Source: an uncultured Pseudomonadota bacterium (GTDB lineage Bacteria > Pseudomonadota > Gammaproteobacteria > Burkholderiales > SG8-39). Taken from it: a DNA stretch of 64,000 nt. A program made the position numbers and the translations under genes. The stretch is from contig CAWFPL010000001.1 of NCBI GenBank assembly GCA_963817785.1, positions 19,466-83,465 on the forward strand, written 5' to 3'. This document shows, piece by piece, positions 41,682-51,485 of this stretch. The notes below the pieces were generated by a model that saw only the letters and a program-made list of their open reading frames with translations, had not been told where the DNA came from and ran no database searches. Position 1 is the stretch's first letter, and each line of letters starts with the position of its first letter.

Positions 41682-42848
41682 ATGAGCGTCGAAAAGATCG
41701 TGGAGCGCTGCGAAGCGCTGTTCGAGGACCTGCAGTTCAACGCGGTCAAGGAATGGAAGGCGGCCGTCCCGGGGCGCAAGGCGATCGGCTACATGCCGAT
41801 CTACGTGCCGCGCGAGATCGTGCACGCCGCGGGCATGCTGCCGGTGGGCATCTTCGGCGGCGGCGACCAGATGGAGGTGATCCAGGGCGACGCGTACTAC
41901 CAGAGCTACATCTGCCGCATCCCGCGCTCGACCCTCGAGCTCGGCCTGACCGGGCGGCTCGACTGCCTCGACGGCATGCTGTTTCCCTCGATCTGCGACG
42001 TGATCCGCAACCTCTCCGGCATGTGGCAGATCCTGTTCAAGGACAAGTACGTCAAGTACTTCGACGTGCCGCAGAACTACGACGACTCGATCGGCGGCGA
42101 GTTCTACGTGCGCGAGATGCAGGTGCTGCGCGAGGACCTCGGCAAGCTGCGCGGCAAGCCGATCACCGACGACGAGCTGCGCACCTCCATCGCGGTGTAC
42201 AACGAAAACCGCCGCGCCATCGGGGAGCTGTACGCCTACCGCGCGAAAAAGCCGTGGCAGGCGCCCACCTCGGAGGTCTACCTGGTGCTGCGCGCCGGAT
42301 GCGTGCTGCCGCCGGAGGAGCACACCCGGTTGGTGCGCGAATACATCGCGGCGGCCGACGCCGCGAAGCGCGCGCCGCGCGACAACGCGCGCATCGTTCT
42401 GACCGGCGCGTTCTGCGAGCAGCCGCCGCTCAGCCTCATCAAGTCGATCGAGATGGCCGGCTGCTACATCGTGGACGACGACTTCATGCTCGTCATGCGC
42501 TGGCTGCTCGACGACGTGCCGGCCGCCGGCGATCCGCTGACCGAGCTGTCGAAGGCGTTCCTACACCGCTCGGCGTCGACCTCGTCCAAGTACGACGAGC
42601 ACAAGGCCGACAAGGGACAGTTCCTGCTCAAGCAGGTCAAGACCAACGCGGGCGAAGGGGTGATTTTCGCCGCGCCGTCGTTCTGCGATCCGGCGCTGCT
42701 CGAGCGCCCGATGCTGCAGGAGGTGCTCGCCAGGTACAAGGTTCCCTACACCGCCTTCAAGTACGCGGAGAACACCGGCCAGATGGCGCCGATCCGCGAG
42801 CAGGCCGGCACTTTCGCCGATTCGATCAAACTCTGGAGCGCTGCGTGA
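41682..42848 (+). CDS. bcrC: Benzoyl-CoA reductase subunit C (class I, Thauera type)
   Basis: ATG at 41682 behind AAGGAGGA. 388 aa, 2-hydroxyglutaryl-CoA dehydratase D-component fold (KAIGYMPIYVPREIVHAAGMLP..). bcrC-B-A-D order. Confidence 0.87.
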   Translation: MSVEKIVERCEALFEDLQFNAVKEWKAAVPGRKAIGYMPIYVPREIVHAAGMLPVGIFGGGDQMEVIQGDAYYQSYICRIPRSTLELGLTGRLDCLDGMLFPSICDVIRNLSGMWQILFKDKYVKYFDVPQNYDDSIGGEFYVREMQVLREDLGKLRGKPITDDELRTSIAVYNENRRAIGELYAYRAKKPWQAPTSEVYLVLRAGCVLPPEEHTRLVREYIAAADAAKRAPRDNARIVLTGAFCEQPPLSLIKSIEMAGCYIVDDDFMLVMRWLLDDVPAAGDPLTELSKAFLHRSASTSSKYDEHKADKGQFLLKQVKTNAGEGVIFAAPSFCDPALLERPMLQEVLARYKVPYTAFKYAENTGQMAPIREQAGTFADSIKLWSAA

Positions 42849-44167
42849 TGAGCACCCCCACGATGCAACCCCAAGTCAGCCCCAAGGCCAAGCCCGTGGT
42901 CCAGAAAGAGGACGCGATGTGGCTGCAGAAGGAGCTGATCAACGGCAACTACCACGAGCTCGCGAATTCGCGCCAGCTGGGCAAGAAGGTCTCCGCCACC
43001 TTCGTGCCGGGCAACCTGAACGAGCTGCTGATGTGCTTCGACTTCGCCCGCAGCCTGCCCGAGACCAACGCGCTGCAGAGCGGCATGCGCAAGAAATCCG
43101 GCAAGTTCATCATGGACGCCGAGCGCGACGGCCATTCCGAGGACGTGTGCACCTACGTGAAGACCGATCTCGGCATGATGCTGCAGGGCCAGGTCGGGCC
43201 GACCGGCGAACCCCTGCCTACGCCCGACGTGCTGCTGCTTTCCTACACCGGTTGCTTCACCTTCATGAAGTGGTTCGAGCTGGTGCGCCAGAAGTACGAC
43301 TGCGAGACGGTGATGCTGCACGTGCCCTACCAGGGAGACGGCCACATCTCGACGAGCATGCGCGATTACGTGGTCAAGCAGATCAAGGAGAAGGTGATCC
43401 CGACGCTGGAGAAGGTCTCGGGCGTGAAGTTCGACATCGACCGGCTGCGCCAGTACATGAAGGAGTCGGCGAAGGCGGAGGACGACCTGGTCTGGACGCT
43501 GCAATCGGCCAAGCACAGGCCCTCGCCGATCGACGGCTACTTCGGCGCGGTGTACTACATCGGCCCGATCTTCACCGCGTTCCGCGGCACGCCCGCGGCG
43601 ACCCAGTACTACCAGGTGCTGCGCGGCGAGATCGAGCAGCGCATCCGCGAGGGCAAGGGACCGATCACTCCGGAAGGCGAAATGGCGGAGGAGAAATACC
43701 GGCTGGTGGTCGAAGGTCCGCCCAACTGGACCAGCTTCCGCGACTTCTGGAAGATGTTCTACGACGAGGGCGCGGTGGTGGTGGCCTCGACCTACGCGAA
43801 GGTCGGCGGCGTGTACGACTTCGGCTTCCGCCACGACCCCGACCACCCGATCGAGTCGCTCGCCGAGTACTGCCTGGGCTGCTACACCAACCTCAATTTC
43901 CCGCAGCGCATCGACATGATCTGCAAGTACATGGACGAGTACCAGGCCGACGGCCTGCTGATCAACTCGATCAAGAGCTGCAACAGCTTCTCGGCGGGGC
44001 AGCTGCTGATCCTGCGCGAGGTTGAGAAGCGCACCGGCAAGCCGGCGGCGTTCATCGAGTCGGACCTGGTGGACCCGCGCTACTTCTCCGCCGCCAACAT
44101 CAAGAACCGGCTCGAGAGCTACTTCCAGATGATCAAGCAGAAGCGCGCCGCCGGCGCCATGCACTGA
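42848..44167 (+). CDS. bcrB: Benzoyl-CoA reductase subunit B
   Basis: The ATG overlaps the bcrC stop (GTGATG). 439 aa, HgdB/BcrB-like ([35 protein letters not shown]). Confidence 0.87.
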
Positions 44168-44178
44168 GGAGAATGCAC

Positions 44179-45519
44179 ATGCGCTGCTTCATCGGCATAG
44201 ACCTCGGCTCCACCACCACCAAGGCGGTGGTGATGGACGAGCAGCAGAACGTGCTCGGGCGCGGCATCACCAACTCGCGCTCGAACTACGACACGGCGGC
44301 GGCGATCGCCAAGCAGGAAGCGCTGGTCAACGCGCGCTTCCACCTGTTCCGCGAGGCGCTGTCCCGATCGGGTGCGCTCAACGGCCGGCTCGAGGACTTC
44401 CTCGGGCAGCTCGAACGCGACTTCCGGCTCGAGCAGTTCCTCGAGCAGCTGGCCGACCTCGAGGCCACCTGCCGGCGCAACGCCGAGGGCGCGCGCTTCG
44501 GCGATGCCGCGGCCGGAGTGCTGTCTGCGCTCGGCGAGGTGTTCCGGCGGCTGCAGCTCGAGGCGCCCGCGCTGTTCGCGCCGGGCGCGAAGCGCAAGTC
44601 GGACTTCTTCCGCGACATCGCCGGCAGCCGCTACCTCGCGGTGGGCGAGGCGGTTGCCAAGGATGCCGGGGTGCGCTACGACATGCTGCTCAACGTCTTC
44701 GACCGCTCGATCATCGAGGTCGAGAACCGCGTCTACGGGGACTCGATCAAGCCCCACCTGCTGGCGGCGCTCAAGCGCACCTTCGCGGCGCAGCCGGAAA
44801 CCGCGAGCCGCGGCGACGCGGTCAGGGCGCCGATCCAGGGCGTGCTCGACACGGCGCTCGACGAGACTTACGTCGTCGGCACCGGCTACGGCCGCGCGCG
44901 GCTGCCGTTTTCCAAGGAGCACATCCGCTCGGAGATCCTGTGCCACGGCCTGGGCGCGCACGTGATGTACCCGCGCACCGCCACGGTGCTCGACATCGGC
45001 GGCCAGGACACCAAGGCGATCCAGGTCGATCCCAACGGCATCGTCGAGAGCTTCCAGATGAACGACCGCTGCGCCGCGGGCTGCGGGCGCTACCTGGGCT
45101 ACATCGCCGACGAGATGAACATGGGCCTGCACGAGCTGGGGCCGCTGGCGATGAAGGCCACCAAGACCGTGCGCATCAATTCGACCTGCACGGTGTTCGC
45201 CGGCGCCGAGCTGCGCGACCGGCTGTCGCTCGGCGAGAAGCGCGAGGACATCATGGCGGGGCTGCACCGCGCCATCATCCTGCGCGCGATGTCGATCCTG
45301 GCGCGCTCCGGCGGCATCCGGGACCAGTTCACCTTCACCGGCGGCGTGGCCAAGAACGAGGCCGCGGTGAAGGCGCTCATGGAGCTGGTCAAGGAGAACT
45401 ACGGCGAGGTGACGCTCAATATCAACCCCGACTCGATCTACACCGGCGCGCTCGGCGGCGCGACCTTCGCCTGGCGCGCGGTGGTCGAGGAAGGCAAGAC
45501 CGTGGAGGCGCGGCAATGA
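44179..45519 (+). CDS. bcrA: Benzoyl-CoA reductase subunit A (ATPase, BadF/BadG/BcrA/BcrD type)
   Basis: [18 protein letters not shown]. The second ATG (44179) has proper spacing from GAGGAGA. ASKHA fold, with Cys in [11 protein letters not shown]. Confidence 0.9.
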
Positions 45520-46370
45520 TCCACACCATCGGCATCGACATCGGCTCCGGCGTCGTCAAGACGACGCTGTTCAGGACCGACGCGGCGGGGGCGGGCGGCA
45601 AGAGCGAATGGCTCGCCAGGCGCTGCGAGCGCATCCGCCGGCGCGACAACATGCAGCTCGCCCAGGCCGGCTACGACGAGGTGCTGGAAGAAGCGCGCCT
45701 CAAGCCCGGCGACGTGGACTACGTGGCCACCACGGGCGAAGGCGAGAACGTGAAATTCGCCACCGGGCACTTCTACTCGATGACCACGCACGCGCGCGGC
45801 GGCGTGTTCCTGCGGCCCGATGCGCGCGCGGTGGTCGATATCGGCGCGCTCAACGGGCGCGCCATCTACGTCGACGAACGCGGCAAGGTGCTGTCCTACA
45901 AGATGACCAGCCAGTGCGCCTCCGGCTCGGGCCAGTTCCTCGAGAACATCGCGCGCTACCTCGGCGTCGCGGTCGAGGAGATCGGCACGCTGTCGAAGGC
46001 CGCCAAGACGCCGGAGAAAATCAGCTCGATCTGCGCGGTGCTGGCCGAGACCGACGTCATCAACATGGTGTCGCGCGGCATTCCCACGCCGGACATCCTG
46101 AAGGGCATCCACATCTCGATGGCCTCGCGCCTGGTGAAGCTGCTCAAGGTCACCGGCATCAAGAGCGGCACGGTGCTGCTCACCGGCGGCCTGGCGCTCG
46201 ACGCCGGCCTGCTCGCCGCGCTGCGCGAAGAGCTGGTCAACGAGAAGATCACCGGGCTCGACACGGTCAACCACCCCGACTCGATCTACGCCGGCGCGAT
46301 CGGCGCCGCGCTGTGGGGCGCCTTCCGCCACGACAAGCTGAAGGCGATGCAGGAGAGGGCGGCGGCCTGA
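45516..46370 (+). CDS. bcrD: Benzoyl-CoA reductase subunit D (ATPase)
   Basis: ATGA overlap with bcr[29 protein letters not shown]. 284 aa. Confidence 0.9.
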
Positions 46371-46389
46371 AACCTTACGGAGATTCGAA

Positions 46390-46635
46390 ATGGCACTCTT
46401 GATCAACGACAACTGCACCGCCTGCGACGCCTGCAAGCCGGTGTGCCCGAACGAAGCGATCAGCGTCGGCGATCCGATCTACGTGATCGATCCGCTGAAG
46501 TGCACAGAGTGCGTGGGGGCCGAAGACGAGCCGCAGTGCAAGCTGGTGTGCCCCGCGGACTGCATCGTGCAGAACCCGGACTACGCGGAGACGCCCGAGC
46601 AGCTGCTGGAGAAGTACAACAGTCTGCACGGGTAG
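46390..46635 (+). CDS. fdx: 2[4Fe-4S] ferredoxin, electron donor of benzoyl-CoA reductase (Allochromatium/Thauera type)
   Basis: 81 aa. CTACDACKPVCP plus CTECVGAEDEPQCKLVCP (second cluster motif with the characteristic insertion). Immediately downstream of bcrD. Confidence 0.85.
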   Translation: MALLINDNCTACDACKPVCPNEAISVGDPIYVIDPLKCTECVGAEDEPQCKLVCPADCIVQNPDYAETPEQLLEKYNSLHG

Positions 46636-46654
46636 CCGTTAGCTCCTTTTTCTC

Positions 46655-46676
46655 AGCCCCGTCGCTCAGGGGCTTT
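46655..46676 (+). terminator. Weak hairpin after fdx
   Basis: AGCCCC-gtcgctca-GGGGCT followed only by TT. Possible end of the bcr transcript, but poor as an intrinsic terminator. Confidence 0.3.
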
Positions 46677-46859
46677 GCCCGGATCGATACCCCAGGCAGA
46701 ATTGGCCTGGAATGCGGCCTGGAAACGCCAAGCACGGTGTAACTGCCATCGGCGTGTATTGCCGCAGGGCGACCGCATCTTGTGGCGGTACACCGGTTGT
46801 TCGGCGCTTTGCTGTTCGAACTGTCCTAACCAGGTAGGTCGCCCCTGAGGTCGGCGCTC

Positions 46860-47780
46860 GTGTATCCAGTCCTCCAGATTCTACAAGACGCTTCCGAGCT
46901 GCCTGAACAGCTTGGGACCAAGCCAAAGTTCTGGTTTCGGAGTGAGGACGGCAAGCGTTGGCTTTTCAAGGAGGGGCGCACTGGCACAGGGGAACACTGG
47001 GCAGAAAAGGCCTGCGCCGAAATCGCCTCGCTTCTCTGCCTTCCGCCCGCGTCATACGAGTTGGCGGAGTGGCGTGGACGCCTGGGCGTTGCATCGCCAA
47101 ACTTTGTTCCCGAAGGGGCGCGATTGGTTCTCGCTAACGAGGTTCTAGCGAAGATGATCCCTGACTATGGAGCTCACGCGAAGCGATTCGAAGCGCGGGA
47201 GCACCGCGTTGTCACAGCCATAGCAATCCTTAAACAAGCGATAGTTGCTTTCCCCTTAGGGTTTCATCGACCTGAAGAACTCGACGGCGCAGGTGATGTC
47301 TTCGTGGGATACCTTTTGTTGGACGCGCTCGTTGGGAATCAGGATCGTCATCATGAAAATTGGGGTTTCGTCGTGACACCCCAGTCAACAATTCACCTTG
47401 CCCCGACGTTTGATCACGCTTCTAGCCTTGGCCGAAACGAGCTGGACGCCGTCCGGCTCGACCGCCTACATACAAGGGATGAGGGTCGGTCCGTGGTCCG
47501 GTATGTGGAGCGCGCCGAGTCGGCATTCTTCCCGAGTGGTGGGGGTACTCGCCCGTTGACTACCCTGGCCGCGTTTGAAGAAGGGGCTAGGATTAGCGCG
47601 ACGGCCGCGCGATATTGGCTTAGTCGTCTCGCAAAGCTTGATGGACACGATTTCGAGCGAGTCTTTGAAATGTTTCCGCCCAGCGTGATCTCTCGTCCCG
47701 CAGTAGACTTCGCATTGGCGATCTTGGAAGCTAATCGCCAGCGGCTCTTAAGTCTCACACCAGGAACGACGCACCGATGA
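46860..47780 (+). CDS. HipA-family Ser/Thr protein kinase, core only (no HipA N-subdomain 1; HipT-like architecture)
   Basis: 306 aa, GTG start. LGTKPKFWF (nucleotide-loop region), GNQDRHHENWGF (catalytic loop) and LAPTFDHASSLG (metal-binding Asp) match the HipA_C pattern. Confidence 0.8.
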   Translation: MYPVLQILQDASELPEQLGTKPKFWFRSEDGKRWLFKEGRTGTGEHWAEKACAEIASLLCLPPASYELAEWRGRLGVASPNFVPEGARLVLANEVLAKMIPDYGAHAKRFEAREHRVVTAIAILKQAIVAFPLGFHRPEELDGAGDVFVGYLLLDALVGNQDRHHENWGFVVTPQSTIHLAPTFDHASSLGRNELDAVRLDRLHTRDEGRSVVRYVERAESAFFPSGGGTRPLTTLAAFEEGARISATAARYWLSRLAKLDGHDFERVFEMFPPSVISRPAVDFALAILEANRQRLLSLTPGTTHR

Positions 47781-48526
47781 CAAAAGCGCTTTTCGTAGCG
47801 TGGCAGGATCCTGAGTCACGGCGCTGGATCCCGGTCGGGCGTCTGACGTTTGAGAACGGTACGTACCGCTTTACCTATACCCGAGGGGCGAAAGAGGCCA
47901 AGAGCTTTGTTCCCTTTGGACGAATGACCGACTTCAATTCGGCGTATGTGTCCAACGAATTGTTTCCATTGTTCGCGAACCGCATCTTGCCGAAGTCGCG
48001 ACCGGAATATGGCGACTACCTGCGGTGGCTTGGGTTAACTGAGGCCCGAGCGCAAGAACTTGAGGTGCTTGCTCGGTCAGGCGGGCTGCGGGCAACTGAT
48101 ACCTTGGAAATTTTTCCTTGCCCCGAACCGACTGACGATCACAGGTATGTGGTCTATTTTTTTAGTCATGGGGTCCGCTATTTGCTTCCGGAGAACCATG
48201 CGCGATTCCACTCACTGCAGCAAGGTGAGCGTCTTTACTTGATGAAAGACATCCAGAATAGCGCTGACGCAATGGCTCTCCTTTTGCGCACGGGCGATCC
48301 GGTTTCAAACGTTGGTTACTGCCCTCGCTATTATTGTGCTGAGTTTGGTCATCTGATCGACGTAGTTGGTGCGGAGAAGGTGATCGTCACGGTTGAAAGA
48401 GTGAACCCGGACGCACCCATGCAATTTCGATTGCTTTGCCGGTTGTCCGCACCTTGGCCTGCGAACTTCGCACCATGTTCTATGGAGGAGTTCCAAGCGC
48501 TACCAGAGGCAGTAGAAACGGCCTGA
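47777..48526 (+). CDS. Partner protein: HipS-like (HipA N-subdomain-like) N-terminus fused to a HIRAN-like C-terminal domain
   Basis: 249 aa, ATGA overlap with the kinase. Residues 1-115: ALFVAWQDPESRRWIPVGRLTFENGTYRFTY, ELFPLFANRILP, LEVLARSGGLRATDTLEIFP. Residues ~123-225: HGVRYL..GERLYLMKDIQNSADAMALLL..VGYCPRYYCAEFGHLID (HIRAN pattern). Domain calls come from pattern recognition only. Confidence 0.6.
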   Translation: MTKALFVAWQDPESRRWIPVGRLTFENGTYRFTYTRGAKEAKSFVPFGRMTDFNSAYVSNELFPLFANRILPKSRPEYGDYLRWLGLTEARAQELEVLARSGGLRATDTLEIFPCPEPTDDHRYVVYFFSHGVRYLLPENHARFHSLQQGERLYLMKDIQNSADAMALLLRTGDPVSNVGYCPRYYCAEFGHLIDVVGAEKVIVTVERVNPDAPMQFRLLCRLSAPWPANFAPCSMEEFQALPEAVETA

Positions 48527-48527
48527 A

Positions 48528-49559
48528 TCAGTAAAGCCGCCTGACGAACGCCAGGCGCTGGCTCGGCGCGAAGCCGGCGCGGTAGAAGAACCCGAGCAGG
48601 GGAAAGTTCTCCTTGGCGACCATGGTCTCGAGGCGCTCGATGCGCAGCGCCGAGAGGTTGATGAACAGCTGCGACAGCAGCGCGCGGCCGAGGCCCTGGC
48701 GGGCGTAATCCGGGTCGACCCCCACGGTATCGATCACCGCCACCGGCTCGGTGCGGCCGAAGTCGCCGAGGTCGGCGCGCGCCATCAGGAAGCCGGCGAG
48801 CACCCCGTCCCGGCGTGCGCTAAGCGAGATGCGGATCGCCGAGTCGAACAGCGCTTCGTCGAGCGCCTTGCCCATGTAGCCGCGCCGCTCCCGGCCGGTG
48901 AGGCGCCGGTCGATGCGCACCACCGCGTCGAGGTCGGCGGACGCCAGCGAGCGCACGTCGGCGGTGTCGCGCGCCAGCGCCTCGAAGTCGTTCCCCGCCG
49001 GGGCGCTGTAGTCGTTCGGATCGCCGCGCCCGTCGCGCTCGGGCGAGTCCACCGGCTGCTCCTCCGCGGCGCCGTAATGCCCGGCGCGCACCGGGCAGTC
49101 GAGCACGAGGTTGTCGGCCAGCGCGTAGCCCAGCCGGTCCATGAAGCGGAGCATGCCGTGGGCGCGCCAGGAGGCGGCGCTGTGGATCTCGCGGATGCCG
49201 CGCCTGGCGGCCTGCTGCTCGAGCGCGGTGTGCAGCGCGCGGCCGATGCCGCGGCTCTGCGCCGCGGGCGTCACTCCGACCACTTCCAGGCGCAGCGCGG
49301 GCTGCGTGCGGCCGAACTCGCCCTCGAGCACGCGCCCCAGCGCGTAGCCGCTTACCGCACCCTGCTCCTCGGCGGCGAATTGCAGGTGCAGCTCCGGCTG
49401 GTGCACCGCCGCGGCGAGCCGGCGCTCGAAATAGGCGCGGCGAGGCCGACCGCTCAGCGCGGCGTCGATCGCGGCCACCGCCTCCAGGTCGCCCGCGGCG
49501 AGCGGCCGCAGCCTGAATCCGGCGCCCGCTCCGGGGGCCGCGCCAACGGTTGCTGTCAT
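48528..49559 (-). CDS. Tandem (double) GNAT-domain N-acetyltransferase
   Basis: Internal ATG at 49559 (MTATVGAAPG..). Two GNAT cores with acetyl-CoA loops (VTPAAQSRGIGRALHTAL and VDPDYARQGLGRALLSQL). Its stop codon is separated by 1 nt from the convergent stop of the partner gene. Confidence 0.8.
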   Translation of the reverse strand: MTATVGAAPGAGAGFRLRPLAAGDLEAVAAIDAALSGRPRRAYFERRLAAAVHQPELHLQFAAEEQGAVSGYALGRVLEGEFGRTQPALRLEVVGVTPAAQSRGIGRALHTALEQQAARRGIREIHSAASWRAHGMLRFMDRLGYALADNLVLDCPVRAGHYGAAEEQPVDSPERDGRGDPNDYSAPAGNDFEALARDTADVRSLASADLDAVVRIDRRLTGRERRGYMGKALDEALFDSAIRISLSARRDGVLAGFLMARADLGDFGRTEPVAVIDTVGVDPDYARQGLGRALLSQLFINLSALRIERLETMVAKENFPLLGFFYRAGFAPSQRLAFVRRLY

Positions 49560-49578
49560 GAGGTGCTTTCCTTTTGCT

Positions 49579-50073
49579 TCAGTCCAGGACGTAGGCGGTA
49601 AACAGCTCGCGGTCGCTGTCTTCGTCGAGCAGGTTCTCGACCGAGGGCAGCAGCGACATCTCCTCCATCTGCGCGTGGGACGCCAGCCGCTGGGCAAGGT
49701 CGAGGCCGTGCATGCGCAGCTGTTGCCAGCCGTGCGCATCGATGGTTTGCGCGCGCACCGCGTCGTGCAGCTCGGAGAGGCGGCGCGCGATGCCGCGGAT
49801 CACCGCGTGCTCCTCGGCGAGCAGCTCGGCGAGGTCGCCTTCCCCGGCTTCGGCGAGGCGCGGGAACAGCTCGGTCTCTTCGAATGCGAAGTGGCGCGCG
49901 ACTTCGTCGGCGAGCGCCGCGACCGAGCTGCGCAGCACCAGGGCCACCCCGGTGTTGGCCGGGTCCGGCGGCCAGGGGCGCGCGCCGAGCGCCTGCTCGA
50001 GGCGCACGCACAGCTGCAGCGTCGCATCGTGCTCCTCGTGCAGCCGGCGGTTGATCTGGCGGGAGAAGTCCAT
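49579..50073 (-). CDS. Hemerythrin HHE cation-binding domain protein
   Basis: 164 aa from the internal ATG (in frame with track ORF 49579..50880). H/E-rich helices: RRLHEEHD, HFAFEETELFP, LLAEEHAVI, SHAQMEE. Confidence 0.75.
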   Translation of the reverse strand: MDFSRQINRRLHEEHDATLQLCVRLEQALGARPWPPDPANTGVALVLRSSVAALADEVARHFAFEETELFPRLAEAGEGDLAELLAEEHAVIRGIARRLSELHDAVRAQTIDAHGWQQLRMHGLDLAQRLASHAQMEEMSLLPSVENLLDEDSDRELFTAYVLD

Positions 50074-50102
50074 GGGCAGCTTCCTGTTCGTGTGGGGGCG
50101 CC

Positions 50103-51485
50103 TCAGCCGCCGTGCGGGTCCTTGCGCAGGTCGCGCACGCGCACGGCCTTGCCCTGCGAGCGCGGCACCTCTCCGGGCTTCTTGACCGTCACTTCGGCCG
50201 TCACTCCGATGAGCGACTTGATCTGGTAGCGCACGCGCTCGGCGATCGCGCGGTAGGCGTCCGGGGAGCCGGCCGGTACCGCCGCCGCAGCCTCGACCTC
50301 GACCGTGAGCGCGTCCAGGTTGCCGCGGCGCTCGACCACCAGCTGGTAGTGCGGCGCGAGGTCCGGCAAGCCCACCAGCGCCGCTTCGATCTGCGACGGA
50401 TAGACGTTGACGCCGCGGATGATCAGCATGTCGTCGTTGCGTCCGGTGATGCGCATGAGCCGCAGGTGCGTGCGCCCGCAGGCGCAGGGCTGGGTGGTGA
50501 CGCGCGTCACGTCGCGCGTGCGGTAGCGGATCATCGGCAGCGCTTCCTTGGTGAGCGTGGTGATCACCAGCTCGCCGGCCTGGCCCTCGGGCGCCGGCCG
50601 GCCGGTGTCGGGATCGATGACCTCGAACAGGAAATGGTCCTCCCAGCCGTGCAGCCCGTCCTGGGCCTCGCACTCGACCGCGACGCCCGGCCCCATGATT
50701 TCGGACAGGCCGTAATTGTCGATCGCCTTGAGCCCGAGACGGATCTGGATCTCGCGCCGCAGGGCCTCGCTCCAGGGCTCGGCGCCGAACAGCCCGATTT
50801 CCAGCCGGCCCTTTCTCAGGTCGACGCCGTCGCGCTCGGCCACCTCCGCGATGTTGAGCGCGTAGGAAGGCGTCGAGCACAGCACGCGTGCGCCGAAGTC
50901 CCTGATCAGCACCACCTGGCGCTCGGTCGAGCCGCCCGACATCGGCACCACCGTGGCGCCGAGCCGCTCGGCGCCGTAATGCATGCCGAGCCCGCCGGTG
51001 AACAGCCCGTAGCCGTAGGCGTTGTGCACCACGTCGCCGGGCCGCACGCCGGCGCAGGCCATGGTGCGCGCCATAAGGTCCGCCCAGGTGTCGAGGTCGT
51101 TCTTGGTATAGCCGACTACGGTCGGCTTGCCGGTGGTCCCCGAGGAGGCGTGCAGCCGCAGCAGATTCTCGCGCGGCCGGGCGAAAAGCCCGAACGGATA
51201 GTGGTCGCGCAGATCGCCCTTCACGCAGAACGGCAGGCTGCGCAGGTCCTCGAGCCTGCGCACGTCCTGCGGTGCGACGCCCGCCGCGTCCATGCGCCTG
51301 CGGTGCAGCGGCACGTTGTCGTACGCGTTCTTCAGCATCGCGCGCAAGCGGCGAAGCTGCAGCCCGGCGAGCTGCTCGCGCGGCGCGGTCTCGACGCGCG
51401 GGTCGAAGTAATCGCGTGCCGTGCGGCGCGGCACGGGGGCGCGGTGGTGCAGCTTGGCGTAGCGCGGCTGAAGCAGTGCGTTCAT
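50103..51485 (-). CDS. paaK: Phenylacetate-CoA ligase (PaaK/PadJ family adenylate-forming enzyme)
   Basis: 460 aa from the internal ATG. LHASSGTTGKPTVVGYT, YGLSEIMGPGV, RYRTRD, IIRGVNVYP. PaaK-type short ANL enzyme. Confidence 0.88.
   Translation of the reverse strand: MNALLQPRYAKLHHRAPVPRRTARDYFDPRVETAPREQLAGLQLRRLRAMLKNAYDNVPLHRRRMDAAGVAPQDVRRLEDLRSLPFCVKGDLRDHYPFGLFARPRENLLRLHASSGTTGKPTVVGYTKNDLDTWADLMARTMACAGVRPGDVVHNAYGYGLFTGGLGMHYGAERLGATVVPMSGGSTERQVVLIRDFGARVLCSTPSYALNIAEVAERDGVDLRKGRLEIGLFGAEPWSEALRREIQIRLGLKAIDNYGLSEIMGPGVAVECEAQDGLHGWEDHFLFEVIDPDTGRPAPEGQAGELVITTLTKEALPMIRYRTRDVTRVTTQPCACGRTHLRLMRITGRNDDMLIIRGVNVYPSQIEAALVGLPDLAPHYQLVVERRGNLDALTVEVEAAAAVPAGSPDAYRAIAERVRYQIKSLIGVTAEVTVKKPGEVPRSQGKAVRVRDLRKDPHGG

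What the first reader, a model, noticed from the sequence alone, without database searches (positions are those of the whole stretch)
46860..48526. Split-HipA two-gene module: kinase core plus HipS-like::HIRAN fusion, no HipB. Candidate uncharacterised toxin-antitoxin / DNA-end-sensing growth-arrest system
Two + strand ORFs overlap by 4 nt (ATGA at 47777-47780), which suggests translational coupling. ORF1 (306 aa) is only the HipA_C-type kinase core. ORF2 (249 aa) begins with what looks like the missing HipA N-subdomain and ends in a HIRAN-like domain. In the characterised three-gene HipBST systems, the small N-subdomain mimic HipS is the antitoxin. There it lies upstream of the kinase HipT, together with an HTH protein, HipB. 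This locus differs in three ways: the gene order is inverted, the HipS-like part carries an extra domain of the type that binds DNA 3' ends in eukaryotic HLTF/Rad5, and no HTH ORF exists in the 224-nt upstream gap on either strand. I recall that a bioinformatic survey of HipA homologues listed kinase families whose partners carry HipS-like and HIRAN domains, but I know of no experimental work on such a pair and cannot check here. Hypothesis (inference): the partner keeps the kinase off until its HIRAN domain meets free or stalled 3' DNA ends, for example from phage replication or DNA damage. That would release a translation-arresting kinase.
Basis: partly seen in the sequence, partly recalled or inferred. 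Interest (0 to 1): 0.8.

Follow-up and report, generated by a model that had tools for sequence, protein, structure and literature searches.

The report
Mobile HipA-like kinase with HIRAN partner
This is a real, intact two-gene cassette (a small HipA-type protein kinase plus a partner that joins a HipA-N-terminal-like domain to a DNA-end-binding HIRAN domain) that was recently inserted into this genome, but the gene pair and the idea of how it works are already published (hipIN, PADLOC candidate PDC-M03), only never tested experimentally.

Summary
ORF1 (46860-47780, 306 aa) is a HipA-superfamily core kinase with every catalytic residue intact. ORF2 (47777-48526, 249 aa) overlaps it by ATGA. 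Its C-terminal half is a confident HIRAN domain. Its N-terminal half matches the HipA N-terminal (Couple_hipA/HipS-like) domain only weakly. There is no HTH gene.

The pair is not new. It fits the hipIN architecture (HipI kinase + HipN) of Gerdes et al. 2021, who also proposed the same DNA-end-sensing abortive-infection idea. Both proteins hit PADLOC's phage-defence candidate PDC-M03 (E 7e-110 and 5e-98). I found no experimental study.

New here:
- The cassette is a 1.9-kb low-GC insert (46632-48534). In sister strains the same site is empty or holds a BrnT/BrnA toxin-antitoxin pair.
- The same pair sits next to integrases in temperate Vibrio and C. difficile phages, and on plasmids.
- The partner is more conserved than the kinase in 58 of 59 loci.
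- Several loci keep an intact partner beside a decayed kinase.

Best reading: a mobile toxin-antitoxin-like or defence switch in which HipN restrains the kinase until its HIRAN domain meets free 3' DNA ends. The mechanism is inferred.

Novelty: new member of a known, uncharacterised kind. Interest is moderate.

The parts
46632..48534 (.). Horizontally acquired cassette. It replaces a 65-nt spacer between the convergent ferredoxin and GNAT genes.
   Evidence: blastn against the empty-site sister strain L086: homology (94-97% identity) ends at window 46631 and resumes at 48535. GC is 0.53-0.59 inside and 0.66-0.75 outside. The same interval holds BrnT/BrnA in L087, L089, L090 and L091, and nothing in L086, L088 and L092.
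46636..46859 (+). 224-nt non-coding leader upstream of the kinase gene. No HTH gene and no recognisable promoter or operator.
   Evidence: Small ORFs here have no Pfam hit. No sigma-70-like site and no Rfam match. No motif is shared with 59 homologous upstream regions. There is a 9-nt direct repeat GGCCTGGAA x2 at 46704-46724, of unknown meaning.
46848..46851 (+). Shine-Dalgarno-like GAGG, 8 nt before the GTG start of ORF1.
   Evidence: Read directly from the sequence.
46860..47780 (+). ORF1: HipI-type core Ser/Thr kinase (306 aa), HipA superfamily, lacking N-subdomain 1.
   Evidence: PADLOC PDC-M03A E 6.6e-110. Pfam HipA_C. AlphaFold model pLDDT 89.4. Foldseek: CtkA E 1.6e-12 (TM 0.65-0.77), HipA 6e-9, HipT about 1e-6. 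Profile against PDB: CtkA 1.6e-8.
46911..46934 (+). Gly-rich loop region L18-G-T-K-P-K-F-W25. The invariant T20 is a candidate autophosphorylation site.
   Evidence: G19, T20, K21, K23, F24 and W25 are invariant in 63 homologues. Its position near the N-terminus matches what is described for HipI kinases. The autophosphorylation role is an inference.
47334..47360 (+). Catalytic motif G159-NQDRHHEN-167 (D162 catalytic Asp, N167).
   Evidence: hhalign places ORF1 148-189 on E. coli HipA 295-336, so D162 corresponds to D309 and N167 to N314. These residues are invariant in the family.
47412..47414 (+). D185, the Mg2+-binding Asp of the invariant block D185-HASSLGRNE.
   Evidence: Aligned to HipA D332 and to CtkA 'FDCGS'. 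Invariant in the family.
47777..47780 (+). ATGA overlap of the ORF1 stop and the ORF2 start (translational coupling).
   Evidence: The same -4 overlap occurs in 26 of 60 homologous loci and in the Vibrio phage and Nostoc plasmid copies.
47777..48526 (+). ORF2: HipN-type partner (249 aa).
   Evidence: PADLOC PDC-M03B E 4.6e-98. 1533 homologues. 1413 clusters at 50% identity, and the best 150 are nearly all full-length proteins of about 240-270 aa. AlphaFold model pLDDT 89.2, pTM 0.83.
47777..48121 (+). N-terminal domain (residues ~1-115), weakly similar to HipA N-subdomain 1 / HipS. It contains the near-invariant loop LFPLFANR-LPKSRPEY (residues 62-78).
   Evidence: Couple_hipA sub-threshold hits. 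hhalign places ORF2 7-69 on HipA 5-64, E 0.16. This is the most conserved part of the pair (65.5% mean identity). No PDB sequence hit.
48134..48466 (+). HIRAN domain (residues ~120-230).
   Evidence: Pfam HIRAN in 63 of 63 members. Foldseek: 3k2y E 5.6e-5 (TM 0.74), HLTF HIRAN 4s0n/4xzg E about 4e-4 (TM about 0.6).
48257..48268 (+). N161-S-A-D164, aligned to HLTF N91-P-Y93-D94 in the 3'-end pocket. D164 is the counterpart of the Asp that contacts the 3'-OH.
   Evidence: hhalign of A2 against the HLTF HIRAN sequence, which I verified against PDB. N161 and D164 are invariant. Position 163 is H/Y/F in 40 of 63 members but Ala here.

Best explanation
The locus is a member of the hipIN family (PADLOC candidate PDC-M03). 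It is a self-contained, horizontally mobile two-gene cassette that behaves like a toxin-antitoxin or abortive-infection module.

Shown:
- ORF1 is an intact HipA-superfamily Ser/Thr kinase core.
- ORF2 is a two-domain partner whose C-terminal half is a HIRAN fold.
- The two genes are translationally coupled and always travel together.
- The cassette was recently inserted at a strain-variable site that in sister strains carries another toxin-antitoxin pair.
- Relatives ride on temperate phages and plasmids.

Inferred:
- The N-terminal domain of HipN docks on the kinase where N-subdomain 1 sits in HipA and where HipS sits on HipT. There it holds the Gly-rich loop (LGTKPKFW) in an inactive state.
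- The HIRAN domain binds free 3'-OH single-stranded DNA ends, which accumulate during phage replication, packaging or DNA damage.
- DNA binding changes the complex so that the kinase becomes active and phosphorylates an essential target. By HipA and HipT precedent this would be an aminoacyl-tRNA synthetase.
- That arrests translation and growth of the infected cell.
- T20 next to the Gly-rich loop may allow self-limitation by autophosphorylation.
For: Identity of the pair:
- PADLOC PDC-M03A and B hits at E 6.6e-110 and 4.6e-98.
- The architecture matches hipIN as defined in PMC8262856.

Active kinase:
- The catalytic Asp/Asn and the Mg-binding Asp align to HipA D309, N314 and D332 and are invariant.
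- The confident model is nearest to CtkA, HipA and HipT.

HIRAN domain:
- Pfam matches in 63 of 63 members and Foldseek hits to HLTF HIRAN.
- The counterparts of N91 and D94 are invariant.

HipS-like N-domain: weak Couple_hipA hits with near full-length coverage, in positional register with HipA residues 5-64.

Obligate pairing: the kinase lies directly upstream in 75 of 86 loci, and the -4 overlap occurs in 26 of 60. No third gene is conserved.

Mobility and toxin-antitoxin-like ecology:
- The site is empty, holds BrnTA or holds hipIN in strains whose flanks are 94-97% identical.
- Module GC is below the flanks in 37 of 53 loci.
- The pair sits beside integrases in a Vibrio PM2-like prophage element and in C. 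difficile phage phiCDKH02, and beside DUF499/DUF1156 genes on a Nostoc plasmid.
- Some chromosomal copies lie next to restriction-modification, PLD-helicase, MqsA or resolvase genes.

Costly kinase: the kinase is frameshifted, internally deleted or truncated beside an intact partner in L035, L045, L059, L060 and L065.
Against: - No experiment exists for any member.
- The docking of HipN on the kinase is not modelled.
- The HipS-like assignment is below Pfam's threshold. hhalign probability is under 1%.
- In this particular protein the residue matching HLTF Y93, which stacks on the 3' base, is Ala. The F142 counterpart is an invariant Pro. DNA-end binding may therefore be weaker or restricted to single strands.
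- The partner is more conserved than the kinase (58 of 59 loci). That is atypical for a labile antitoxin.
- Single-chain HipL proteins fuse all three domains. Neutralisation therefore cannot depend on antitoxin degradation.
- Most chromosomal copies sit among housekeeping genes rather than in defence islands.
- No promoter was recognised.
Confidence: 0.5

Rival explanations
1. Classical type II toxin-antitoxin (addiction or stabilisation) module. HipN is a protease-labile antitoxin. Its N-domain neutralises the kinase, and its HIRAN domain merely replaces HipB as the DNA-binding domain that autoregulates the operon. No DNA-end sensing is involved.
For: - There is no HTH gene, yet the partner carries a DNA-binding domain.
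- The cassette occupies the same strain-variable site as a BrnTA pair.
- It occurs on plasmids and prophages.
- The kinase decays beside an intact partner in some loci.
Against: - Characterised HIRAN domains recognise DNA 3' ends, not operator sequences (established knowledge, cited).
- No palindrome or conserved motif is found upstream in 59 loci.
- The partner evolves more slowly than the kinase.
- HipL fuses the domains in one chain.
Confidence: 0.2
2. Split holoenzyme rather than toxin plus antitoxin. The HipN N-domain is a structural part needed for kinase activity, as N-subdomain 1 is in active HipA. HIRAN targets the kinase to 3' DNA ends, where it phosphorylates DNA-associated proteins, either phage replication or recombination factors or host repair proteins.
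For: - The partner, and above all its N-domain, is the most conserved part of the pair (65.5% against 51% for the kinase).
- Gene order and translational coupling favour 1:1 co-assembly.
- HipL is a single chain.
- N-subdomain 1 is compatible with activity in HipA (established knowledge).
- The closest structural relative, CtkA, is not a tRNA-synthetase kinase.
Against: - Decayed kinases beside intact partners suggest that the kinase is the costly component.
- Orphan HipN genes exist without any kinase.
- The only experimental precedent for a separate N-subdomain mimic (HipS) is inhibitory.
Confidence: 0.2
3. An inert passenger: a decaying or silent remnant with no current function in this host.
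For: - No promoter-like site is found in the leader.
- Some relatives are pseudogenised.
Against: - Both reading frames are intact, with all invariant residues of the family.
- The coupling signal and Shine-Dalgarno sequence are intact.
- The cassette points the same way as the upstream operon, so read-through transcription is possible.
- The insertion is recent: the flanks are 94-97% identical to empty-site strains.
Confidence: 0.07

Closest known systems
hipIN modules (HipI kinase + HipN), Gerdes, Baerentsen & Brodersen 2021, mBio (PMC8262856)
   Same: - A short core kinase (279-321 aa) with the Gly-rich loop near the N-terminus and a Ser/Thr beside it.
- A downstream gene encoding a HipS-like domain plus HIRAN.
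- No HipB.
- The same proposed DNA-end-sensing abortive-infection role.
   Different: Nothing in the architecture differs. Placement inside the published HipI subclade (the Proteobacteria/Cyanobacteria branch) was not tested here. The published family had few members. This search finds 1413 clusters of the partner at 50% identity.
PADLOC phage defence candidate PDC-M03 (PADLOC-DB v2.0)
   Same: Both proteins match the A and B models almost end to end (E 6.6e-110 and 4.6e-98). Others describe PDC-M03 as HipA plus HIRAN-domain proteins.
   Different: PDC-M03 is a candidate only. I found no validation of it. This copy is solitary and not in a defence island.
HipBST (E. coli O127:H6, Legionella pneumophila)
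   Same: The HipA kinase is split into a core kinase and a separate N-subdomain-1-like protein. In HipBST that protein (HipS) is the antitoxin and blocks the Gly-rich loop through Trp65. ORF1 resembles HipT structurally (Foldseek E about 1e-6).
   Different: - Two genes rather than three, with no HTH HipB.
- The kinase comes first.
- The HipS-like part carries an added HIRAN domain.
- Sequence similarity is marginal.
- The loop corresponding to the HipS Glu63/Trp65 region reads LPKSRPEY.
CtkA (JHP0940) of Helicobacter pylori, PDB 3akj/3akk/3akl
   Same: It is the closest solved structure to ORF1 by sequence profile (E 1.6e-8 over residues 49-298) and by fold (E 1.6e-12, TM 0.65-0.77). It shares the catalytic and Mg-binding motifs.
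   Different: CtkA is described as a secreted pro-inflammatory kinase. No HIRAN partner is known for it, and identity is only 16-17%.
HLTF/Rad5 HIRAN domain and Lactobacillus plantarum lp_0118 (PDB 4s0n, 4xzg, 3k2y)
   Same: The fold is the same. The counterparts of R71, N91, D94, H110 (Tyr here) and K113 (Arg here) are conserved. Only N91 and D94 fall inside the hhalign block. The others are placed by motif spacing.
   Different: - The Y93 counterpart is Ala in this protein.
- The F142 counterpart is Pro throughout the family, as noted for bacterial HIRANs.
- The domain is attached to a kinase-binding domain instead of a SNF2 helicase.
HipL kinases (Gerdes et al. 2021)
   Same: The same three domains in the same order: kinase, HipS-like, HIRAN.
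   Different: HipL has all three in one polypeptide. Here they are split after the kinase. No fusion appeared among the best 150 relatives of ORF2.

Membership tests
hipIN (HipI/HipN) of Gerdes et al. 2021 | Short core kinase lacking HipA N-subdomain 1, with the Gly-rich loop close to the N-terminus. | tested here: met
   ORF1 is 306 aa. The invariant G19-T-K-x-K-F-W25 lies at the N-terminus. hhalign to HipA covers only the C-terminal kinase part. Foldseek TM normalised to HipA length is about 0.44, against about 0.75 for the short CtkA.
hipIN (HipI/HipN) of Gerdes et al. 2021 | [quoted passage not shown] | tested here: met
   The catalytic D162/N167 and the Mg-binding D185 align to HipA D309, N314 and D332 and are invariant. 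The Gly-rich loop is assigned by position and conservation. The activation loop was not mapped residue by residue.
hipIN (HipI/HipN) of Gerdes et al. 2021 | [quoted passage not shown] | tested here: met
   T20 is invariant in 63 of 63 homologues.
hipIN (HipI/HipN) of Gerdes et al. 2021 | Downstream partner with a C-terminal HIRAN domain. | tested here: met
   Pfam HIRAN above the cutoff, in 63 of 63 members. Foldseek hits to the HLTF HIRAN domain.
hipIN (HipI/HipN) of Gerdes et al. 2021 | The N-terminal half of the partner is HipS-like (homologous to HipA N-subdomain 1). | tested here: inconclusive
   Couple_hipA scores 18.9-20.0 bits, below the 22.5 cutoff, in 22 of 63 members, with model coverage 9-89 of 99. 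hhalign to HipA residues 5-64 gives E 0.16. No PDB sequence hit. No structural comparison of the isolated domain was possible.
hipIN (HipI/HipN) of Gerdes et al. 2021 | Phylogenetic placement of the kinase in a HipI subclade of main clade XI. | not tested
   The reference HipI sequences from the paper's Table S1 were not retrieved.
PADLOC PDC-M03 | Adjacent genes matching the PDC-M03A and PDC-M03B profile models. | tested here: met
   E 6.6e-110 (residues 2-299 on model 5-301 of 305) and E 4.6e-98 (residues 1-242 on model 1-242 of 245). The two genes overlap by 4 nt.
HipBST tripartite system | Three genes, with an HTH HipB and a HipS upstream of the kinase HipT. | tested here: not met
   No HTH ORF lies in the 224-nt leader or anywhere else in the insert. 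The kinase gene comes first. No third gene is conserved in 32 surveyed loci.
Classical HipBA | Kinase of about 440 aa with N-subdomain 1 in cis, plus an upstream HTH antitoxin HipB. | tested here: not met
   The kinase is 306 aa, there is no HipB, and the N-subdomain-like part is on a separate protein.
Type II toxin-antitoxin system (functional definition) | The toxin arrests growth and the cognate protein neutralises it by direct binding. | not testable with these tools
   Only indirect support: kinase decay beside an intact partner, a site shared with BrnTA, and carriage on mobile elements.
Anti-phage defence system (functional definition) | Confers resistance to phage infection. | not testable with these tools
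   Candidate status only. A minority of loci lie next to defence genes. No experiment was found.

The most novel reading that the evidence does not exclude
HipN is not an antitoxin. It is the sensor and targeting subunit of a split kinase. Its unusually conserved N-domain completes the kinase, and its HIRAN domain brings the kinase to free 3' DNA ends. The substrates would then be DNA-end-associated phage or host replication and recombination proteins rather than tRNA synthetases. That would make this a bacterial DNA-end-activated protein kinase, working in the manner of the eukaryotic DNA-damage kinases.
Probability: 0.15. Interest if true: 0.75.

Novelty: new member of a known kind. Interest (0 to 1): 0.35.

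Why it matters
The family is large. There are 1413 clusters of the partner at 50% identity, and relatives in at least 315 of the reference species genomes. It spans Proteobacteria, Acidobacteria, Desulfobacterota, Planctomycetes, Cyanobacteria, Actinobacteria and Firmicutes phages. No member has been tested.

If the proposed mechanism holds, it would be the first kinase-based immune or stress switch in bacteria triggered directly by free DNA 3' ends. It would also give a function to bacterial HIRAN domains.

This locus offers a natural comparison: near-identical strains carry the cassette, a BrnTA pair or nothing at the same site. As a discovery, though, the pair and the hypothesis are already published, so the finding itself adds a new example plus some family-level observations.

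Tried and rejected
- **Model of the complex.** I built a linker-fused, contig-paired alignment of 21 kinase+partner pairs.
- **HipS-likeness by sequence.** phmmer of the ORF2 N-domain against PDB found nothing. The A2 profile against PDB gave only the HIRAN-like 3k2y. hhalign against E. coli HipA gave a sensible register but E 0.16. The Foldseek list for the whole ORF2 model was filled by HIRAN hits, and no sub-domain search was possible.
- **Regulatory signals.** No sigma-70-like promoter, no significant terminator excess, no Rfam family and no motif shared among 59 upstream regions. I inspected the repeat TGGCCTGGAATGCGGCCTGGAA as a possible sigma-54 site and rejected it because the GG-to-GC spacing is wrong.
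- **A conserved third gene** (for example the diDNase reported next to actinobacterial HipA/HIRAN pairs). None was found among 122 neighbours of 32 loci.
- **Host identification** from cluster names failed. A more distant ferredoxin lineage has a different downstream context and told me nothing about the insertion site.
- **Literature searches** for an experimental study under the names HipN, HipI, hipIN, PDC-M03, 'HipA-like' plus defence, and HIRAN plus prophage found only bioinformatic mentions. Many false positives came from 'Hirano' and hip-surgery papers.
Full report
**1. The observation**

- ORF1 is 46860-47780 (GTG start, 306 aa).
- ORF2 is 47777-48526 (ATG start, 249 aa).
- They share ATGA at 47777-47780.

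A GAGG sits 8 nt before the GTG, and homologues align from residue 1, so the start is sound. The small ORFs in that gap have no Pfam match.

**2. What the proteins are: the kinase**

- ORF1 matches Pfam HipA_C just above threshold (30.9 against 30.5 bits). The family consensus scores 35.9 bits over most of the model.
- With an alignment of 63 homologues, AlphaFold gives a confident model (pLDDT 89.4).
- Its nearest solved structures are H. pylori CtkA (E 1.6e-12, TM 0.65-0.77), then HipA (6e-9), then the HipT proteins of E. coli and Legionella (about 1e-6). A sequence profile search also puts CtkA first (E 1.6e-8).
- hhalign against genuine E. coli HipA (fetched) aligns ORF1 148-189 with HipA 295-336. 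That makes D162, N167 and D185 the counterparts of D309, N314 and D332.
- These residues, the block D185-HASSLGRNE and the N-terminal G19-T-K-x-K-F-W25 are invariant in 63 homologues.

**3. What the proteins are: the partner**

- ORF2 has a HIRAN domain above threshold (28.2 against 24.7 bits). All 63 family members match it.
- Its model (pLDDT 89.2, pTM 0.83) hits lp_0118 (3k2y, TM 0.74) and the HLTF HIRAN domain (TM about 0.6).
- I verified the HLTF HIRAN sequence against PDB and aligned it to the family profile. ORF2 N161 and D164 correspond to HLTF N91 and D94, and both are invariant.
- The Y93 counterpart is H/Y/F in 40 of 63 members but Ala here. The F142 counterpart, placed by motif spacing, is an invariant Pro. 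That agrees with the published remark that bacterial HIRANs lack this Phe.

The N-terminal half of ORF2 is the weakest point.
- Couple_hipA scores 18.9 bits for this protein and 20.0 bits for the family consensus (cutoff 22.5). It covers model positions 9-89 of 99, and 22 of 63 members hit at E<0.01.
- hhalign to HipA gives a sensible register (ORF2 7-69 on HipA 5-64, LFPLFANR on VFNFFDNL) but E 0.16.
- I therefore treat 'HipS-like' as consistent but not proven here. It rests mainly on the published alignments.

**4. It is a known kind**

Both proteins match PADLOC's PDC-M03A and B models nearly end to end (E 6.6e-110 and 4.6e-98). Gerdes, Baerentsen and Brodersen (2021, PMC8262856) defined hipIN as follows:
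- a short HipI kinase with the Gly-rich loop near the N-terminus and a neighbouring Ser/Thr;
- followed by HipN, which is a HipS-like domain plus HIRAN.

They proposed that HIRAN recognises DNA ends of invading phages, which activates the kinase and triggers abortive infection.

Later papers mention the pair only bioinformatically:
- a 2025 NAR paper notes diDNase genes next to HIRAN and HipA genes in Actinobacteria and says the link 'remains to be investigated';
- a 2026 genome paper lists PDC-M03 as HipA plus HIRAN.

I found no experimental characterisation under any name I could think of. The library does not cover most subscription journals, so this is not proof that none exists.

**5. Context in this genome**

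GC falls from 0.66-0.75 in the flanks to 0.53-0.59 across the module.
- Upstream genes (+ strand): two HGD-D proteins, two BcrAD/BadFG ATPases and a ferredoxin.
- Downstream genes (- strand): a tandem-GNAT protein, a hemerythrin and an AMP-forming ligase.

Contigs encoding the identical ferredoxin show three states of the ferredoxin/GNAT intergenic site:
- empty, with a 54-nt spacer between the called genes (L086, L088, L092);
- occupied by BrnT/BrnA (L087, L089, L090, L091);
- occupied by this cassette (the window and L001).

blastn puts the boundaries at 46631/46632 and 48534/48535, with flanks 94-97% identical. The last one or two codons of the GNAT gene differ between the three states (read from the sequences). 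So the whole 1.9-kb unit is a recent, strain-variable insertion at a site that also accepts a classical toxin-antitoxin pair.

**6. The family**

Size and spread:
- The partner has 1533 homologues in the 90%-clustered collection.
- It has 1413 clusters at 50% identity with E<=1e-3. The best 150 are almost all full-length two-domain proteins of 240-270 aa, and none is fused to a kinase.
- In reference genomes, 315 stretches encode a relative. They span Gamma- and Betaproteobacteria, Acidobacteria, Desulfobacterota, Rokubacteria, Fibrobacteria and a Kuenenia planctomycete.

Gene arrangement:
- In 75 of 86 loci a kinase lies immediately upstream on the same strand.
- Among the 60 loci with a full-length kinase, 26 show the identical -4 overlap.
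- No third gene is conserved among 122 neighbours of 32 loci.
- A minority of neighbours are PLD-helicase, PbeA-like, restriction-modification, MqsA, resolvase or TraG genes. The rest are housekeeping.
- Module GC is below the flanks in 37 of 53 loci and above in one.

Carriage on mobile elements:
- The pair sits next to the integrase in 14-kb PM2-like temperate Vibrio phage elements.
- It sits between the immunity region and the integrase in C. difficile phage phiCDKH02.
- It sits next to DUF499/DUF1156 genes on a Nostoc plasmid.
- Eight plasmids in PLSDB carry a relative.

**7. Two family-level observations that bear on mechanism**

First, the partner is more conserved than the kinase.
- Against the window, identity is 60.7% for the partner and 51.3% for the kinase, and the partner is higher in 58 of 59 loci.
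- The partner is also higher in 130 of 150 random locus pairs.
- Its N-domain is the most conserved part, at 65.5%.
- That is unusual for an antitoxin.

Second, several loci keep an intact partner next to a damaged kinase.
- The kinase is frameshifted in L035 and L059.
- It has lost its catalytic core in L045.
- Only about the first 105-115 residues remain in L060 and L065.
- A few partners have no kinase at all and sit next to other genes: a DUF3037 protein with TIR and a type I S subunit in L008, a type I R subunit with PIN in L071, and PP2C in L018.

Kinase decay suggests the kinase is costly, as a toxin would be. The conservation pattern and the existence of single-chain HipL suggest that HipN is more than a disposable inhibitor.

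**8. Mechanism**

The best-supported reading is the published one.
- HipN's N-domain sits on the kinase like N-subdomain 1 or HipS. In HipBST, HipS blocks the Gly-rich loop through Trp65.
- HIRAN senses 3' DNA ends.
- The released kinase arrests growth.

Everything after 'the two proteins form a complex' is inference. I give it 0.5.

Rivals:
- a classical autoregulated toxin-antitoxin pair in which HIRAN replaces HipB as the DNA-binding domain (0.2; no operator-like motif);
- a split holoenzyme targeted to DNA ends (0.2);
- an inert passenger (0.07).

**9. Verdict**

The locus is a new member of a known, experimentally uncharacterised family. Interest is moderate (0.35). The family is a good experimental target, but neither the architecture nor the hypothesis is new.

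Noticed in passing
L087 4662-5990 (also L089, L090, L091), corresponding to window 46632-48534: In strains with an identical ferredoxin protein, the same intergenic site carries a BrnT/BrnA toxin-antitoxin pair instead of the kinase-HIRAN cassette. In L086, L088 and L092 the site is empty (54-nt spacer between the called genes). So this site is a hotspot for toxin-antitoxin-type cargo.
   Followed up: yes
window 48528-48545 (3' end of the GNAT gene, - strand): The last one or two codons of the GNAT gene differ between the three site states. The C-terminus reads ...RRLY in the window, ...KRLP at the empty site and ...KRLV with BrnTA. The exchanged segment therefore reaches into the gene's C-terminus.
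   Followed up: partly
window 46704-46724: A 9-nt direct repeat GGCCTGGAA occurs twice, 12 nt apart, in the leader of the cassette. It overlaps an imperfect inverted repeat (46692-46722). It is not conserved in other loci and its meaning is unknown.
   Followed up: partly
L035, L045, L059, L060, L065 (upstream of the HipN match): The kinase gene is frameshifted (L035, L059), has lost its catalytic core by internal deletion (L045), or is truncated to about 105-115 residues (L060, L065). The HIRAN partner gene stays intact in each.
   Followed up: partly
L008 764-4178; L071 1560-6564; L018 5920-7643: Orphan HipN homologues have no kinase and sit directly after other genes. In L008 these are a DUF3037 protein with a TIR_2 protein and a type I restriction S subunit. 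In L071 they are a type I R subunit and a PIN protein. In L018 it is a PP2C phosphatase. The HipN module may pair with other effectors.
   Followed up: partly
L104 6021-7735 (Vibrio phage 10N.222.46.E12_PE001); L105 3092-4681 (Clostridioides phage phiCDKH02): Temperate phages carry the HipA-like/HIRAN pair as accessory cargo beside their integrase. In the C. difficile phage it lies just after the ImmA/XRE immunity genes.
   Followed up: partly
L106 217-4981 (Nostoc sp. UHCC 0926 plasmid pn5): A plasmid copy of the pair, with the same 4-nt overlap, lies next to DUF499 and DUF1156 genes. PADLOC mad2 (MADS) models also hit 3 of the 122 neighbour proteins surveyed across other loci.
   Followed up: no
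window 41753-46635 and 48528-51473: The cassette interrupts what looks like an anaerobic aromatic-acid degradation cluster. One side has two HGD-D subunits, two BcrAD/BadFG ATPases and a ferredoxin. The other side has a tandem-GNAT protein, a hemerythrin and an AMP-forming CoA ligase.
   Followed up: partly
ORF1 (window 46860-47780) versus PDB 3akj: The closest solved relative of this kinase family is H. pylori CtkA, not HipA or HipT. The 2021 Hip phylogeny paper does not mention CtkA.
   Followed up: partly
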